Shown piece after piece: positions 1,266-4,470 of a stretch of DNA of 6,050 nucleotides. Positions within the stretch are counted from its first letter, which is position 1, and each line of letters starts with the position of its first letter. Under the pieces are notes generated by a model, which worked only from the letters and a program-made list of their open reading frames with translations, was not told the origin of the DNA and did no database searches. Source of the DNA: an uncultured Gammaproteobacteria bacterium (GTDB taxonomy: Bacteria > Patescibacteriota > Patescibacteriia > UBA2591 > UBA6264); assembly GCA_964617525.1 (NCBI GenBank), contig CAZTWG010000039.1, positions 1-6,050 of the forward strand. The letters are read 5' to 3'. The translations under genes were made by a program, and so were the position numbers.

Positions 1266-2096
1266 ATGTTTTTGCAAATTATTTGTATTCTATTTTTAAT
1301 AATTTTTTTAGTATATTCCATACTCAAAGAACCGTTTAATGTTTGCTTAGAACGCAAGGACATATTTTTGGAAAAATTACCGACTAATTTTGACGGATTA
1401 AAAATTGTTCAAATTAGTGATTTGCATTCTAAGAAATTTGGCAAAAAAGAAAAAAGAATTTTAGAGATTATAGGTCAGCTTAATGTTGATTTTCTTTTTA
1501 TAACCGGCGACATAAATGAAGCTAAACAAAGAAAAGTTAATTCTTGCATTGAGTTTTGGAAAGCCCTAGGAAAAGTAAAGCAAGGTTGTATTTATGCTGT
1601 CTTTGGTAATCATATTTACGAACATCAAAAAATAGAACCTATTGTTTTAAAAAATATTTTGAGAAAATCAGGAATACAGATTCTTGATAACGAAAATGTA
1701 AAGCTAAGGAGAGAAGAACAATATATTTGGCTCTTGGGTGTTGATGACCCACACACAAATCATCATGATTTATCAAAAACATTGCAAGGCATAGATAATT
1801 CCTCAACAAGAATATTATTATCGCATAGTCCAGAGATAATAGATGATTTAAAGACGGGGGATGCTGATTTAATTTTAGCTGGGCATACACATGGCGGACA
1901 AATTAAAATTCCTGGGATTTGTCCCTTTTGGGTGCCGACAAAATATCATGGCAAATATCAGCGCGGATTGTTTAAAGTTAAGGGCGCTTATCTATATGTT
2001 AATCGTGGGATTGGAACAGCTCACTTTCCTGTTCGTTTTAATTCTAAACCAGAGATAACACTATTCACACTTAAAGACCCCCAAATTGACCACTGA
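1266..2096 (+). CDS. Membrane-anchored metallophosphoesterase (calcineurin-like, YkuE/YaeI type)
   Basis: An N-terminal hydrophobic helix (MFLQIICILFLIIFLVYSIL) precedes the ordered phosphoesterase motifs 'ISDLHS' (DxH), 'ITGDI' (GD), 'FGNH' (GNH) and 'AGHTHGGQI' (GHxH). Confidence 0.85.
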   Translation: MFLQIICILFLIIFLVYSILKEPFNVCLERKDIFLEKLPTNFDGLKIVQISDLHSKKFGKKEKRILEIIGQLNVDFLFITGDINEAKQRKVNSCIEFWKALGKVKQGCIYAVFGNHIYEHQKIEPIVLKNILRKSGIQILDNENVKLRREEQYIWLLGVDDPHTNHHDLSKTLQGIDNSSTRILLSHSPEIIDDLKTGDADLILAGHTHGGQIKIPGICPFWVPTKYHGKYQRGLFKVKGAYLYVNRGIGTAHFPVRFNSKPEITLFTLKDPQIDH

Positions 2097-2113
2097 GGTC
2101 AATTTCAATTTTT
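2083..2113 (+). terminator. Weak intrinsic terminator-like hairpin overlapping the stop codon of the phosphoesterase gene
   Basis: AAATTGACC (2083-2091) pairs with GGTCAATTT (2097-2105) as a 9-bp perfect stem. The 5-nt loop ACTGA contains the TGA stop. The T5 run (2109-2113) is separated from the stem by 'caa'. Confidence 0.4.
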
Positions 2114-2116
2114 GTA

Positions 2117-2144
2117 TTGACAAATTCTTCAAATCTGCTATAAT
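2117..2144 (+). promoter_or_regulatory. Consensus sigma70-type promoter with extended -10 (copy A)
   Basis: The -35 is TTGACA at 2117-2122, the spacer is 16 nt, TGc lies at 2136-2138, and the -10 is TATAAT at 2139-2144. Both hexamers are perfect consensus. Confidence 0.8.
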
Positions 2145-2154
2145 TTCAATAATT

Positions 2155-2182
2155 AAGAACAAAAACGTTCTTTAAAAGGAGG
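2155..2182 (+). promoter_or_regulatory. Leader palindrome AAGAAC-N6-GTTCTT followed by Shine-Dalgarno AGGAGG (copy A)
   Basis: AAGAAC (2155-2160) and GTTCTT (2167-2172) are perfect inverted repeats about +4 to +21 from the predicted TSS. AGGAGG lies at 2177-2182, 4 nt before the ATG at 2187. The same elements occur at 3626-3653 and 4436-4463. Confidence 0.6.
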
Positions 2183-2186
2183 AAAA

Positions 2187-2666
2187 ATGTTGACAATACT
2201 TATTAAGTCCGTATTGTCCCTTGTTGCTTATGTTGTTATTATCATTGTTTTTAGGTTAGCCTATCATTTCTTGATTGCAAAAAGACATCTTCCGAGACAG
2301 TCAATGAATATCTGTGGTCCAGAAGGGATTACAGTAGATGTCTCTGGTCTATTCTACGACGGTCATAGAGAAGAGTCTCTTAAGCTCACTAGAGATTTAT
2401 CTACAATTTTCTTTTCTGTAGGTTTCTTCATCTTCGGCATAATTTCTCTTTTTTTAAGGGGAATGAATACGCCAATGATATTGGTTCTGTTTTTCAACTT
2501 TTCGTATTATCTTGGTGCAAGTGCAAGAACAGCGACAGAAGATGCAAAGGATTATCTCTCCTCTTTCATGGGAGAACTAACCCGTCTTGAAGCAATAGGT
2601 AGTATTCTCTTGGCTGTTTTATTTTCAGCAGGGACAACAGCGCTTATTGTCCTTTTATTAGGGTAA
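2187..2666 (+). CDS. Hypothetical integral membrane protein, about 4 TM helices (159 aa)
   Basis: A perfect SD is well placed upstream. Hydrophobic segments lie at about residues 3-29, 73-90, 95-110 and 135-158. A polar loop lies at 30-72 and an amphipathic stretch at 111-134. I recognise no catalytic motif. A strong terminator follows. Confidence 0.75.
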   Translation: MLTILIKSVLSLVAYVVIIIVFRLAYHFLIAKRHLPRQSMNICGPEGITVDVSGLFYDGHREESLKLTRDLSTIFFSVGFFIFGIISLFLRGMNTPMILVLFFNFSYYLGASARTATEDAKDYLSSFMGELTRLEAIGSILLAVLFSAGTTALIVLLLG

Positions 2667-2684
2667 GGTGCAGAAAAAAGTATT

Positions 2685-2718
2685 AGGCTTGATCTTTGTG
2701 TCAAGCCTATTTTTTTTG
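2685..2718 (+). terminator. Rho-independent terminator
   Basis: TAGGCTTGA (2685-2693) pairs with TCAAGCCTA (2702-2710) as a 9-bp perfect stem with an 8-nt loop. A T8 run (2711-2718) follows immediately. Confidence 0.85.
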
Positions 2719-2737
2719 TGATATTATTGGGGATTTT

Positions 2738-2762
2738 ATTTAGGAATCCGATTCCTAAATAG
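2738..2762. promoter_or_regulatory. Perfect 11-bp inverted repeat (TATTTAGGAAT ccg ATTCCTAAATA), candidate operator
   Basis: The arms at 2738-2748 and 2752-2762 are exact reverse complements with a 3-nt spacer. The repeat lies in the 198-bp intergenic region about 100 nt upstream of the Nudix ATG, and no T-run follows it. Confidence 0.45.
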
Positions 2763-2864
2763 TTTAATTTGTGTTTATGATAGAAAAATGTTAAACTAAC
2801 ATTAGTCGGTTTTCTCTGCTTAGTCTTGGGGAGACGGTAATTATAATCAATAAAATAAACAAAA

Positions 2865-3512
2865 ATGAAAGTTAAAAAATTATTAGAATTCATGGAGAAA
2901 AACACTGAGTTTATTCCTAGCTGGAAAGAATATAAAGGAGGCGGTTTGTATAACCCTCATTTTGGTTCAGTAGAGAGAATTGTTGTCTGCGAAGATGATG
3001 ACACTCCTATTTTTGATCAGTATCAGGTTGTAGAAAAGGGGGGGGCAATTGTTGTCCCTTATTATTTTAAAGATAATAATCTAAAGGATGTTTTTATTGG
3101 GCTCAATACATGTATTCGGGCGGTTGTTGCCGATTTAAAGACAGGTGAACAAGGAAACCTAAAGAGCATAGAAGTGCCTAGGGGATTTGGAATTGGTGAT
3201 GAAGAAGATTCTTCTGTAGCTATCAGAGAATTAGGCGAAGAGACACAACATGTAGTCAAAAAGTTAGATTTAATAGGCTACGTTAATGCTAATACAGCCT
3301 ATTTTAAGAATTATGGAATTTCAACATTTGCGGCATTAATTGATACAGATTCTTTGGGCAAATTTACTCCTGACCCAAACGAAAAGATACTTAGTTGTAG
3401 TTTTTATTCTGTAGAAGAAGTTAAAAAAATGTTGAATGATAACAAGATTTTTTGTGGGCTTACTAAATCAGCGCTTTTAGATTTTCTCGTTTTCATCAAA
3501 AGTGATCTGTGA
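2865..3512 (+). CDS. Nudix hydrolase (ADP-ribose pyrophosphatase-like), 215 aa
   Basis: A near-canonical Nudix box G-x5-E-x7-REUxEExGU lies at residues 107-129 (nt 3183-3251). It reads G FGIGD E EDSSVAI RE L G EE T Q H, with only the last G replaced by Q. There is no SD upstream, as for the flanking native genes. Confidence 0.8.
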   Translation: MKVKKLLEFMEKNTEFIPSWKEYKGGGLYNPHFGSVERIVVCEDDDTPIFDQYQVVEKGGAIVVPYYFKDNNLKDVFIGLNTCIRAVVADLKTGEQGNLKSIEVPRGFGIGDEEDSSVAIRELGEETQHVVKKLDLIGYVNANTAYFKNYGISTFAALIDTDSLGKFTPDPNEKILSCSFYSVEEVKKMLNDNKIFCGLTKSALLDFLVFIKSDL

Positions 3513-3523
3513 ATATAAACTAA

Positions 3524-3545
3524 CCTATAACTGACCTATAACTGA
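3524..3545. repeat. Tandem 11-bp direct repeat CCTATAACTGA x2
   Basis: 3524-3534 is identical to 3535-3545. The repeat starts 12 nt after the Nudix stop codon, and the second unit supplies the CTGA of the terminator's left arm. Confidence 0.9.
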
Positions 3546-3567
3546 CCCGACGGGTCAGTTTTTTTTT
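3541..3567 (+). terminator. Rho-independent terminator (5' part of module copy B)
   Basis: CTGACCC (3542-3548) pairs with GGGTCAG (3552-3558) with loop GAC, and A3541/T3559 can extend the stem. A T9 run follows at 3559-3567. Confidence 0.8.
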
Positions 3568-3587
3568 CAGGGAGTCTCCCACGCATA

Positions 3588-3615
3588 TTGACAAATTCTC
3601 CAAATTTGCTATAAT
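3588..3615 (+). promoter_or_regulatory. Consensus sigma70-type promoter with extended -10 (copy B)
   Basis: TTGACA lies at 3588-3593, the spacer is 16 nt, TGc lies at 3607-3609, and TATAAT lies at 3610-3615. The GGGAGTCTCCC palindrome at 3570-3580 lies just upstream. Confidence 0.8.
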
Positions 3616-3657
3616 TTCAATAATTAAGAACAAAAACGTTCTTTAAAAGGAGGAAAA

Positions 3658-4296
3658 ATGAAAATTAACTACGCTAAACGCATTGCTCGATTACAAGAGT
3701 GTCTAGGCATAGACACCGGCATTACCGCTCAGCAGTTCAAGCTGGAGGCCGAACATCTATGGGACGTTATGATTCAAAGGGATCCTAAGATAGTTAGTGA
3801 ATTCAATATAGTGCTTCCAGTGGTTTTACCTAAGCTTGTTACTGGTGACCTTGGTATTGAGTTGCAATTGTATCTAGAAGGAGTTGGCAAAAGCTATGCT
3901 AAAATTACCGATAGAGAGTTCCATAACTATTATGAGAATGAATTAGATGGCAAGGTCAAAATAGTTCCAGGGAGTCATCATAATCAACTCATCAAACGTA
4001 TGAAACAGGGGTCACTTGTCGGCATACATCTTTCAGGTCTTTTGCGTGGCGAATTTGAACCAAGAGAGCAATACTTACTATCTGGCATGGATATTCCTAT
4101 TGTCGTGTTGATGTTTCCCGATCTATTTGGTTGCGACCATAATCAGATTTTGGACATGACTGCTCTCTCGTGGCGAAACGGGAGGGGACTTGCTTTAGCT
4201 AGCTACAAAACAGGCGCAGAGTTTAATATTACTGGCAACTTGCTTTATGCGGGTGTTGCTGATTATGCTCGACCCTCTTACCTATTTTTAGGGTAG
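3658..4296 (+). CDS. Hypothetical soluble protein, 212 aa, no recognisable motif
   Basis: The ORF has a perfect SD (AGGAGG 3648-3653) and its own strong terminator. It has no signal peptide or TM segment. It is noticeably more GC-rich than its neighbours: hand counts give 43% for 3661-3720 and 48% for 3721-3780. Confidence 0.75.
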   Translation: MKINYAKRIARLQECLGIDTGITAQQFKLEAEHLWDVMIQRDPKIVSEFNIVLPVVLPKLVTGDLGIELQLYLEGVGKSYAKITDREFHNYYENELDGKVKIVPGSHHNQLIKRMKQGSLVGIHLSGLLRGEFEPREQYLLSGMDIPIVVLMFPDLFGCDHNQILDMTALSWRNGRGLALASYKTGAEFNITGNLLYAGVADYARPSYLFLG

Positions 4297-4310
4297 GTTT
4301 CTCAATTTAT

Positions 4311-4344
4311 AGGTCTTTCGTATTTGCGAAAGACCTGCTTTTTT
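4311..4344 (+). terminator. Rho-independent terminator
   Basis: AGGTCTTTCG (4311-4320) pairs with CGAAAGACCT (4327-4336) as a 10-bp perfect stem with a 6-nt loop. It is followed by GCTTTTTT (4337-4344). Confidence 0.85.
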
Positions 4345-4347
4345 AAT

Positions 4348-4470
4348 TATAACCAACCCGACGGGTCAGTTTTTTTTCAGGGAGTCTCCCACGCATATTG
4401 ACAAATTCTTCAAATCTGCTATAATTTCAATAATTAAGAACAAAAACGTTCTTTAAAAGGAGGAAAAATG
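4348..4470 (+). repeat. Regulatory module copy C, long form with truncated terminator arm
   Basis: It contains ACCCGACGGGTCAG plus T8 (4356-4377), GGGAGTCTCCC (4380-4390), the promoter, the leader, the SD (4458-4463) and the ATG at 4468. The left arm of the hairpin reads CCAACCC instead of CTGACCC, so only 4 bp can pair. Confidence 0.97.
4398..4425 (+). promoter_or_regulatory. Consensus sigma70-type promoter with extended -10 (copy C)
   Basis: TTGACA lies at 4398-4403, the spacer is 16 nt, TGc lies at 4417-4419, and TATAAT lies at 4420-4425. Confidence 0.8.

What the first reader, a model, noticed from the sequence alone, without database searches (positions are those of the whole stretch)
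2083..4470. One consensus promoter-leader-RBS module triplicated and fused at the ATG to three unrelated ORFs
Three copies (2115-2189, 3586-3660, 4396-4470) carry the same elements. These are a perfect TTGACA, a 16-nt spacer, TGcTATAAT, a roughly 35-nt leader with a palindrome, AAAGGAGG, 4 nt, then ATG. Copies A and C are 75/75 identical. Copy B differs only at two promoter-spacer positions, so every functional element is invariant. Identity stops at the start codon, and the downstream proteins (4-TM protein, 212-aa soluble orphan, small lipoprotein) share no similarity. ATG-to-ATG spacing is 1471 and 810 bp. This is neither a gene duplication nor a CRISPR array nor an IS element. It looks like a portable expression signal that places otherwise unrelated genes under one strong, shared control. 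A precise boundary at the ATG on three different ORFs is hard to obtain by chance. It implies either a dedicated mechanism or repeated homologous exchange within the module.
Basis: partly seen in the sequence, partly recalled or inferred. Interest (0 to 1): 0.88.

Follow-up and report, generated by a model that had tools for sequence, protein, structure and literature searches.

The report
Recombining promoter cassette in variable island
Three near-identical copies of a terminator-promoter-leader-ribosome-site cassette head three unrelated genes in a variable island of an uncultivated Parcubacteria genome. Strain variants show genes being deleted, and possibly duplicated or circularised, by recombination between the copies, much as described for T4-type phages.

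Summary
Copies at 2115-2189, 3586-3660 and 4396-4470 are 75/75 (A and C) and 73/75 (B) identical. Each ends at the ATG of a gene unrelated to the other two. Independent assemblies reproduce the arrangement, so it is not an artefact. It is also not the genome's usual signal: of 23 genes on the contig, only these three have a Shine-Dalgarno site.

The module is a family found across a Parcubacteria clade. Every related genome has 1-5 copies, all inside the same island between a metallophosphoesterase gene and a SIMPL gene. They sit in front of at least 9 unrelated ORF families.

Copies within one genome share substitutions that differ between genomes. In the same species, three contigs join flank A directly to the third gene, which is an exact A/C recombinant missing 2281 bp. 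One 951-nt contig is a circular 810-bp path with a chimeric B/C junction.

The best reading is a composite terminator/promoter/RBS cassette that expresses insulated single-gene units and acts as a recombination anchor. The closest known relatives are the PeSLs of T4-type phages and "putative mobile promoters". There is no sign of a dedicated enzyme. The exact ATG boundary is specific to this genome; across the family, homology ends at the Shine-Dalgarno site. This is a new variant of a known kind and of moderate interest.

The parts
1266..2096 (+). Conserved left flank of the island: metallophosphoesterase gene
   Evidence: Pfam Metallophos. Syntenic in all relatives.
2083..2114 (+). Hairpin AAATTGACCACTGAGGTCAATTT plus a T-rich tail, overlapping the metallophosphoesterase stop codon. 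This is the terminator-like part of cassette junction A.
   Evidence: Terminator scan.
2115..2189 (+). Module copy A. Elements: -35 2117-2122; TG 2136-2137; -10 2139-2144; palindrome AAGAAC/GTTCTT 2155-2172; SD AAAGGAGG 2175-2182; ATG 2187-2189.
2187..2666 (+). 159-aa predicted multi-pass membrane protein. It is an ORFan. Related genomes carry an unrelated 217/276-aa family at this position.
   Evidence: No Pfam match. No homologue other than itself. No similarity to relatives' loci in any of six frames.
2684..2717 (+). Intrinsic-terminator-like hairpin plus T8 that closes cassette 1
2865..3512 (+). NUDIX-family gene with its own promoter (not the module) and no SD. It is the conserved core of the island.
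   Evidence: Pfam NUDIX. Homologues of 79-88% identity sit in every syntenic island.
3537..3585 (+). Long-form upstream part of copy B: the NUDIX terminator hairpin 3540-3560 plus T9, then the palindrome GGGAGTCTCCC 3570-3580
   Evidence: The hairpin CCAACCCGNCGGGTTGG sits after NUDIX in relatives that lack any cassette here.
3586..3660 (+). Module copy B. Elements: -35 3588-3593; -10 3610-3615; palindrome 3626-3643; SD 3646-3653; ATG 3658-3660. It differs from A and C by two SNPs in the promoter spacer.
3658..4296 (+). 212-aa protein. It is an N-terminally truncated homologue of a ~300-aa family, at least one member of which is the variable protein of a diversity-generating retroelement (DGR).
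4310..4347 (+). Terminator-like hairpin plus T-run that closes cassette 2
4348..4395 (+). Long-form upstream part of copy C: a duplicated copy of the NUDIX-terminator right arm and T-run, then the palindrome GGGAGTCTCCC 4380-4390
4396..4470 (+). Module copy C, identical to A. Elements: -35 4398-4403; -10 4420-4425; palindrome 4436-4453; SD 4456-4463; ATG 4468-4470.
4468..4767 (+). 99-aa lipoprotein (lipobox LAGC). Its last ~6 codons and its terminator are homologous to the 3' end of the unrelated 75-aa gene at this position in a relative.
   Evidence: Pfam LPAM_1. Distant homologues. 3'-end alignment.
4791..4823 (+). Terminator-like hairpin that closes cassette 3
4895..5653 (+). Conserved right flank of the island: SIMPL/DUF541 gene with its own promoter (4832-4860) and no SD

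Best explanation
The module is a lineage-specific composite cassette junction. It consists of the upstream gene's terminator hairpin, a sigma-70-type promoter with an extended -10, a ~37-nt leader, and a perfect Shine-Dalgarno site. Each copy heads an insulated single-gene unit in a hypervariable island of an uncultivated Parcubacteria (Patescibacteria/CPR) chromosome.

I infer two roles.

1. Expression. It supplies strong transcription and SD-led translation to accessory genes, in a genome whose housekeeping genes have no SD.

2. Recombination. Because the copies are near-identical direct repeats, ordinary homologous recombination and gene conversion between them homogenises the copies. It also deletes or swaps the ORFs between them, and may duplicate or circularise them. 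No dedicated enzyme is needed.

Identity stops near the start codon simply because shared ancestry ends there. Fusions that upset the SD-to-ATG geometry would not be expressed.

Secondary, weaker inference: the conserved GTTCTTT box is an anti-SD that masks GGAGG in relatives. In the window lineage the palindrome's left arm (AAGAAC) pairs with that box instead. The C that closes the SD helix has also been lost, and the -10 has become a perfect TATAAT. Together these changes would make the window version a derepressed, 'up' form.
For: Shown by tool results:
- Not generic. Only 3 of 23 genes on the contig have an SD. S2, L10, L12 and EF-Ts do not. The same holds in a relative, and only one other SD was seen among downstream genes. 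A profile search finds no copy outside the island in any locus.
- Family-wide. Each of 7 related islands has 1-5 copies, all on the + strand and all directly upstream of an ORF. They precede 9 unrelated ORF families.
- Homology with a relative runs through the module, stops at about the ATG (2187) and resumes at 2763.
- Concerted evolution. All three window copies carry TGCTATAATTTC, while every copy in the relatives carries TGTCATACTTTT or a near variant of it (TGCCATAC, TGTAATAC; TTTC in one copy).
- Recombinant haplotypes within the species (flanks more than 99.5% identical). Three contigs (L044, L045, L046) from two ENA samples and one NCBI MAG join the metallophosphoesterase gene and flank A through the module to the 99-aa gene. 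This is an A/C recombinant missing 2281 bp.
- L005 is 951 nt, which equals 810 + 141. Its first and last 141 nt are identical, and its junction combines the C-type flank, the B-type SNPs and the 212-aa gene start.
- Each cassette ends in a terminator-like hairpin.
- An empty site exists. In L020, L030 and L033, NUDIX is followed directly by the SIMPL promoter.
- Anti-SD. In all 10 relative copies the minimum-energy fold pairs GUUCUUU with the SD, with P(SD paired) of 0.51-0.88. Five of those copies exceed at least 98% of leader shuffles. The window's B and C copies score 0.08-0.13.

From the literature: PeSLs have the same anatomy and the same proposed mechanism, including mini-circles (PMC2839356; PMC4122927).
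Against: - No transcript data exist, so promoter strength, the transcription start site and SD use are inferred from consensus only.
- Only about 26 kb of this genome was screened, so copies elsewhere cannot be excluded.
- The circular L005 path and the deletion contigs are assemblies, not reads. A de Bruijn artefact at low coverage is unlikely for three independent deletion contigs, but it cannot be excluded for the single circular path.
- How the first module-ORF fusions arose is unexplained.
- The anti-SD helix is weak (-4.5 to -6.8 kcal/mol). Its 5' arm never varies, so there is no true covariation. The copies are not independent samples.
- The hairpin's left arm is missing in several relatives (L020, L030 copies 2 and 4, L034), so the palindrome is dispensable.
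Confidence: 0.7

Rival explanations
1. Regulon signal. The copies stay identical through selection, because one regulator binds the palindromes (AAGAAC-N6-GTTCTT in the leader, GGGAGTCTCCC upstream of -35) and co-regulates the three genes. Recombination would then be incidental.
For: - A palindrome at about +8 to +25 is a typical repressor position.
- GTTCTTT is invariant in the 12 profile-detected copies; the more diverged copy before the 207-aa ORF in L030 has GTTCCTT.
- The long-hairpin leader subtype shows one compensatory arm change between L027 and L030. That change fits either a symmetric operator or an RNA helix.
Against: - Identity covers promoter-spacer and loop positions that have no expected function.
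- Lineage-specific substitutions are shared by all copies in a genome, which is what conversion or recent copying would produce.
- The left arm is absent in several relatives.
- GGGAGTCTCCC occurs only in window copies B and C.
- GAAC-N6-GTTC does not fit the Gram-positive LexA box spacing of N4 (from my own knowledge).
- Selection on an operator cannot explain the deletion or circular haplotypes.
Confidence: 0.15
2. Mobile element or integron-like system. The module would be part of a MITE, an IS end or an attC/attI-type site moved by a dedicated recombinase.
For: - Hairpin-rich junctions.
- The island is variable.
- A relative carries an rve-family transposase inside its island (L019).
Against: - There are no terminal inverted repeats or target-site duplications around the module.
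- No integrase or transposase is present on the 23-kb contig.
- The L019 transposase is a strain-specific insertion that is absent from L017.
- Every cassette has its own promoter, unlike integron cassettes.
- There were no hits in phage, plasmid or viral collections.
Confidence: 0.05
3. Assembly artefact, or the organism's generic promoter/RBS.
For: - Several contigs break inside the repeat (L009, L011, L003), as repeats usually cause.
Against: - Two full-length contigs from different assemblers and samples, plus bridging contigs over each copy, give the same order.
- 20 of 23 genes on the contig have no SD, and nothing else matches the module profile.
Confidence: 0.03

Closest known systems
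PeSLs (promoter-early stem-loop cassettes) of T4-type phages (Arbiol et al. 2010, PMC2839356; Comeau et al. 2014, PMC4122927)
   Same: - About 100-bp composite made of the upstream stop codon and stem-loop terminator, a consensus sigma-70 promoter, then an SD and the start codon.
- Sits in front of ORFans in hyperplastic regions.
- Indels between close relatives are bounded by the elements.
- Recombination between flanking copies is proposed to delete, insert or circularise single-gene cassettes.
   Different: - Here the host is a cellular chromosome (Parcubacteria) with no phage genes nearby.
- There are only 1-5 copies, confined to one island, against about 50 per phage genome.
- Copies are far more uniform (100% against loosely conserved motifs).
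- The SD contrasts with an otherwise SD-poor genome.
- Neither promoter/terminator activity nor circular DNA has been shown experimentally.
Putative mobile promoters / promoter reuse in prokaryotes (Matus-Garcia, Nijveen & van Passel 2012; commentary PMC3575422)
   Same: - At least 80% identical upstream sequence of 50 nt or more in front of non-paralogous genes in one genome.
- No associated IS element.
   Different: - That survey scored positions -150 to -50 and gave no mechanism.
- Here the shared block runs to the start codon, is conserved across a clade at one locus, and comes with recombinant haplotypes.
SD-masking leader hairpins (fourU-type RNA thermometers)
   Same: A U-rich tract (GUUCUUU) is predicted to pair with GGAGG in the relatives' leaders. 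The helices are weak and are predicted to melt between 37 and 65 C.
   Different: - Only predicted, with no covariation.
- In the window copies the SD is predicted to be open.
- No Rfam family matches.
Phage 'morons' (autonomous promoter-gene-terminator units). This comparison rests on my own knowledge.
   Same: Each cassette is a self-contained transcription unit inserted between conserved genes.
   Different: Morons do not share one common promoter sequence, and they are carried on prophages.

Membership tests
PeSL (T4-type phage regulatory cassette) | Consensus sigma-70-like promoter | tested here: met
   12/12 hexamer match plus TG in all three copies.
PeSL (T4-type phage regulatory cassette) | Adjacent stem-loop able to terminate upstream transcription | tested here: met
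   Terminator-like hairpins at 2083-2105 and 3540-3560. Copy C has a weaker, chimeric version of the hairpin.
PeSL (T4-type phage regulatory cassette) | SD and the start codon of the downstream gene at the 3' end | tested here: met
   AAAGGAGG, 4 nt, then ATG.
PeSL (T4-type phage regulatory cassette) | Lies upstream of variable or ORFan genes in a hyperplastic region; indels between close relatives are bounded by the elements | tested here: met
   Island content differs in every relative. An A/C deletion haplotype exists.
PeSL (T4-type phage regulatory cassette) | Circular cassette DNA formed by exchange between neighbouring elements | tested here: inconclusive
   L005 is a circular 810-bp assembly path with a chimeric junction. 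A tandem duplication or a graph artefact has not been excluded.
PeSL (T4-type phage regulatory cassette) | Resides in a T4-type phage genome | tested here: not met
   Flanks are bacterial housekeeping genes. No PHROG or viral hits.
Putative mobile promoter (PMP) | At least 80% identity over 50 nt or more upstream of genes in the same genome | tested here: met
   97-100% over 75 nt, and 96% over 128 nt for B and C.
Putative mobile promoter (PMP) | Adjacent coding sequences are not paralogous | tested here: met
   All-vs-all BLASTP gave no hits.
Integron | IntI integrase, attC-flanked promoterless cassettes, and a single Pc promoter | tested here: not met
   No integrase on the contigs. Every cassette carries its own promoter. 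The hairpins are 21-28 nt terminators.
MITE / Correia-like promoter-bearing element | Terminal inverted repeats and a target-site duplication | tested here: not met
   The inverted-repeat search and the alignment of flanks show neither.
FourU-type RNA thermometer / SD-masking leader | The SD is paired in a weak helix that melts with temperature | tested here: inconclusive
   Predicted in relatives. Not predicted for the window copies. Melting cannot be tested here.
Any Rfam RNA family | Covariance-model match | tested here: not met
   Nothing matched at the module.

The most novel reading that the evidence does not exclude
The island may be a chromosomal 'expression dock' of CPR bacteria. A PeSL-like cassette would let strains capture, audition and exchange foreign or newborn ORFs, including an ORFan and a truncated DGR-target fragment. 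Exchange would go through small circular intermediates. Only these captured genes would get SD-led, riboregulated translation (anti-SD and anti-anti-SD leader) in a genome that otherwise does without SD. This would extend a shuffling mechanism known only from phages to cellular genomes.
Probability: 0.2. Interest if true: 0.75.

Novelty: new variant of a known kind. Interest (0 to 1): 0.5.

Why it matters
Reduced CPR genomes are thought to vary mainly in small islands of surface and host-interaction genes. This locus offers a concrete, sequence-level mechanism for how such an island turns over: homologous exchange at a shared terminator/promoter/RBS cassette. Natural recombinant haplotypes are already visible in metagenomes.

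It also shows that the PeSL principle may not be confined to phages. The module genes are the only ones with a strong SD, and that contrast with the SD-less housekeeping genes gives a handle on translation initiation in these organisms.

Tried and rejected
- Exact-pattern scans for the leader/RBS in GTDB genomes and IMG/VR gave 0 hits. A degenerate promoter pattern in IMG/VR also gave 0.
- BLASTN of the long form against GenBank phages and PLSDB plasmids found no match. This rejects a phage, plasmid, vector or synthetic origin.
- Rfam found nothing at the module.
- PHROGs and PADLOC searches on ten island proteins found nothing informative. The one 'Cor' hit matches only the lipoprotein signal peptide.
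- The AlphaFold model of the 212-aa protein was too poor to use (pLDDT 46.6), so I ran no fold search. A PDB profile search found nothing.
- A six-frame comparison of the 159-aa gene region with relatives' islands found nothing, so I cannot trace where this ORFan came from.
- Within-species SNPs are too few to test selection on the ORFs.
- I considered a LexA 'Cheo box' (GAAC-N4-GTTC) and rejected it on spacing, which here is N6.
- I considered integron and MITE readings and rejected them (see the membership tests).
Full report
**1. Observation**

The window has three direct copies of one block, with start-to-start spacing of 1471 and 810 nt.
- Aligned, A (2115-2189) and C (4396-4470) are identical.
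- B (3586-3660) differs at two promoter-spacer positions.
- B and C share about 50 further nt upstream: a hairpin plus T-run, then the palindrome GGGAGTCTCCC.

Each copy has the following elements:
- TTGACA, a 16-nt spacer, and TGnTATAAT. These are the only 12/12 promoter matches in the window.
- The palindrome AAGAAC-N6-GTTCTT.
- AAAGGAGG, then AAAA, then ATG.

The three ORFs (159, 212 and 99 aa) show no similarity to each other. Each cassette ends in a terminator-like hairpin, at 2684-2709, 4310-4337 and 4791-4813. The NUDIX terminator at 3540-3560 forms the upstream part of long-form copy B.

**2. Real, and not generic**

The window lies on a 23.4-kb ENA contig and a 10.1-kb JGI contig with the same order. 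Shorter contigs from other ENA and JGI samples bridge each copy; contigs from Logan assemblies stop before or inside copy A.

The flanking genes are TsaB, UppS, a metallophosphoesterase, SIMPL, RNase J and ribosomal proteins. Relatives are labelled Candidatus Parcubacteria.

Of 23 genes on the contig, only the three module genes have an SD. S2, EF-Ts, L10, L12 and the rest have A/T-rich upstream regions without one. The same holds in a relative, and among downstream genes of this species only SLAC1 has an SD. A profile of the module finds no copy outside the island in any locus I hold.

**3. A clade-wide family tied to one island**

The single metagenome scan recovered a related organism with a ~88% identical module at the syntenic position, fused to a different ORF. 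Using the NUDIX protein as an anchor, I collected syntenic loci from several related genomes.
- Each has 1-5 module copies.
- All are on the + strand and sit directly before an ORF.
- All lie between the metallophosphoesterase and SIMPL genes.
- The downstream ORFs fall into 9 unrelated families.

The conserved parts are the promoter (TATTGACAAATTCCGCAAATCTGTCATACTTTTAA) and GTTCTTTAAAAGGAGGA. The leader between them varies: a short hairpin, a long hairpin, or a deletion.

After GGAGGA the sequences diverge, and the distance to the start codon is 2-7 nt. So across the family the shared block ends at the SD, not at the ATG.

Homology between the window and relative L017 runs from the left flank through the module to about position 2187, then resumes at 2763. 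In L020, L030 and L033, NUDIX is followed directly by the SIMPL promoter. That is an empty site for cassettes B and C.

**4. Recombination between copies**

(a) Concerted evolution. All three window copies carry TGCTATAATTTC. Every copy in the relatives carries TGTCATACTTTT or a near variant of it (TGCCATAC, TGTAATAC; TTTC in one copy), even though copies occupy equivalent positions in both lineages: first after the metallophosphoesterase gene, and last before SIMPL.

(b) A deletion haplotype. Three contigs have flanks 99.6% identical to the window. They are L044 (a 43-kb contig), L045 and L046 (an NCBI MAG). Each joins the metallophosphoesterase gene and the A flank, through one module, straight to the 99-aa gene. 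This is the exact A/C recombinant, and it lacks 2281 bp.
- The A flank in these contigs carries a distinctive variant that destroys the -35 box. The same variant is also seen joined to the 159-aa gene in L010.
- In sample ERZ27248110 the deletion contig and the full-island contig L003 both occur, so the two arrangements coexist there.

(c) A circular path. L005 is 951 nt, which equals 810 + k (141). Its first and last 141 nt are identical. The junction combines the C-type upstream flank, the B-type spacer SNPs and the start of the 212-aa gene. This is what a B/C exchange would produce, either as a circle or as a tandem duplication. It rests on an assembly path only, so I treat it as suggestive.

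(d) The right-hand boundaries of replaced segments vary. The 99-aa gene shares its last ~6 codons and its terminator with the unrelated 75-aa gene of L019, but not with L017.

**5. The fused genes**

- The 212-aa protein aligns with ~300-aa homologues but lacks their first ~100 residues. The module was therefore joined inside an ancestral ORF. That argues against a precise dedicated mechanism. One full-length homologue is the target of a diversity-generating retroelement. Its VR and TR differ mostly at TR adenines, and bAvd and RT genes lie next to it.
- The lipoprotein has distant small homologues.
- The 159-aa membrane protein has no homologue.

**6. The leader**

In every relative copy the minimum-energy fold pairs the invariant GUUCUUU with the SD and the following AAC or AC. 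P(SD paired) is 0.51-0.88, and five of the ten copies exceed at least 98% of leader shuffles.

In the window copies GUUCUU instead pairs with the upstream AAGAAC. The closing C is replaced by A, and the SD is predicted to be open (0.08-0.13 for B and C).

Together with the change from CATACT to TATAAT, the window lineage appears to carry an 'up' version of the module. This is prediction only. The helices are weak, the 5' arm never varies, and several relatives lack the AAGAAC arm.

**7. Comparison with known systems**

PeSLs of T4-type phages have the same anatomy: stop codon, stem-loop, consensus sigma-70 promoter, SD and start codon. They have the same location, upstream of ORFans in hyperplastic regions. 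They also have the same proposed mechanism, including mini-circles (PMC2839356; PMC4122927). Membership fails on one point: this is not a phage genome.

The module also meets the operational definition of a putative mobile promoter (PMC3575422).

Integron, MITE, Rfam-family, phage, plasmid and synthetic origins were each tested and not supported.

**8. Verdict**

The 'portable expression signal' reading is supported, with homologous exchange rather than a dedicated mechanism behind it. This is a new variant of a known kind, of moderate interest. The most useful follow-up is read-level confirmation of the recombinant junctions and a whole-genome census of the module.

Noticed in passing
window 3658-4296; L039 6001-8454: The 212-aa protein is a truncated homologue of a diversity-generating-retroelement (DGR) target family. 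In L039 the full-length homologue has a VR (6776-6905) matching a TR (7289-7418), with most mismatches at TR adenines, next to bAvd and RT genes. No TR or RT lies on the window's contig.
   Followed up: partly
L010 ~2085-2125; L044 ~200-245; L045; L046 ~8700-8745 (equivalent to window 2106-2125): A natural variant of copy A's upstream edge (CACTTTTTTATATAAATTC) removes the TTGACA -35 box. It occurs both in front of the 159-aa gene and in the deletion haplotype in front of the 99-aa gene.
   Followed up: partly
L007 whole locus; L044 9194: The genome is almost free of SD sites, ribosomal protein genes included. Besides the module genes, only a SLAC1-family transporter gene has a GGAGG upstream.
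   Followed up: partly
L019 2140-3423: A 427-aa rve-family (DDE) transposase gene is inserted in the island of one relative, right next to its second module copy. It is absent from the otherwise near-identical L017.
   Followed up: no
L027 15001-18612; L033 4589-8227, compared with the 809-aa PPDK gene on L007 17686-20115: The pyruvate phosphate dikinase gene carries an intein (1203-1212 aa) in two related genomes, but not in the window species or in L030.
   Followed up: no
window 5964-6050; L002 8559-8631: The intergenic region between the 101-aa gene and RNase J holds a 36-nt tandem repeat (TAAGAACCTGCTCACTT...GAACCTTGAAA). Its copy number differs among strains, giving an intergenic length of 121 or 197 nt.
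   Followed up: partly
window 3526-3547: A tandem duplication of the 11-nt unit CTATAACTGAC lies immediately upstream of the NUDIX terminator hairpin. The second unit provides the compensating left arm that makes hairpin B perfect, whereas hairpin C keeps the ancestral CCAAC arm and is mismatched.
   Followed up: no
L030 6046-14343: In one relative the island has expanded to ~7.5 kb through a diverged segmental duplication. The repeated unit is: module, 208-aa NUDIX paralogue, IMPase-like gene, module, variable ORF, 217-aa NUDIX. A further degenerate module copy lies at 10168-10240.
   Followed up: partly
window 4748-4823 vs L019 1575-1735: The last ~6 codons and the terminator of the 99-aa lipoprotein gene are homologous at the DNA level to the 3' end of the unrelated 75-aa gene in L019. 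The ORF body was apparently replaced between the module and a point inside the old ORF.
   Followed up: partly
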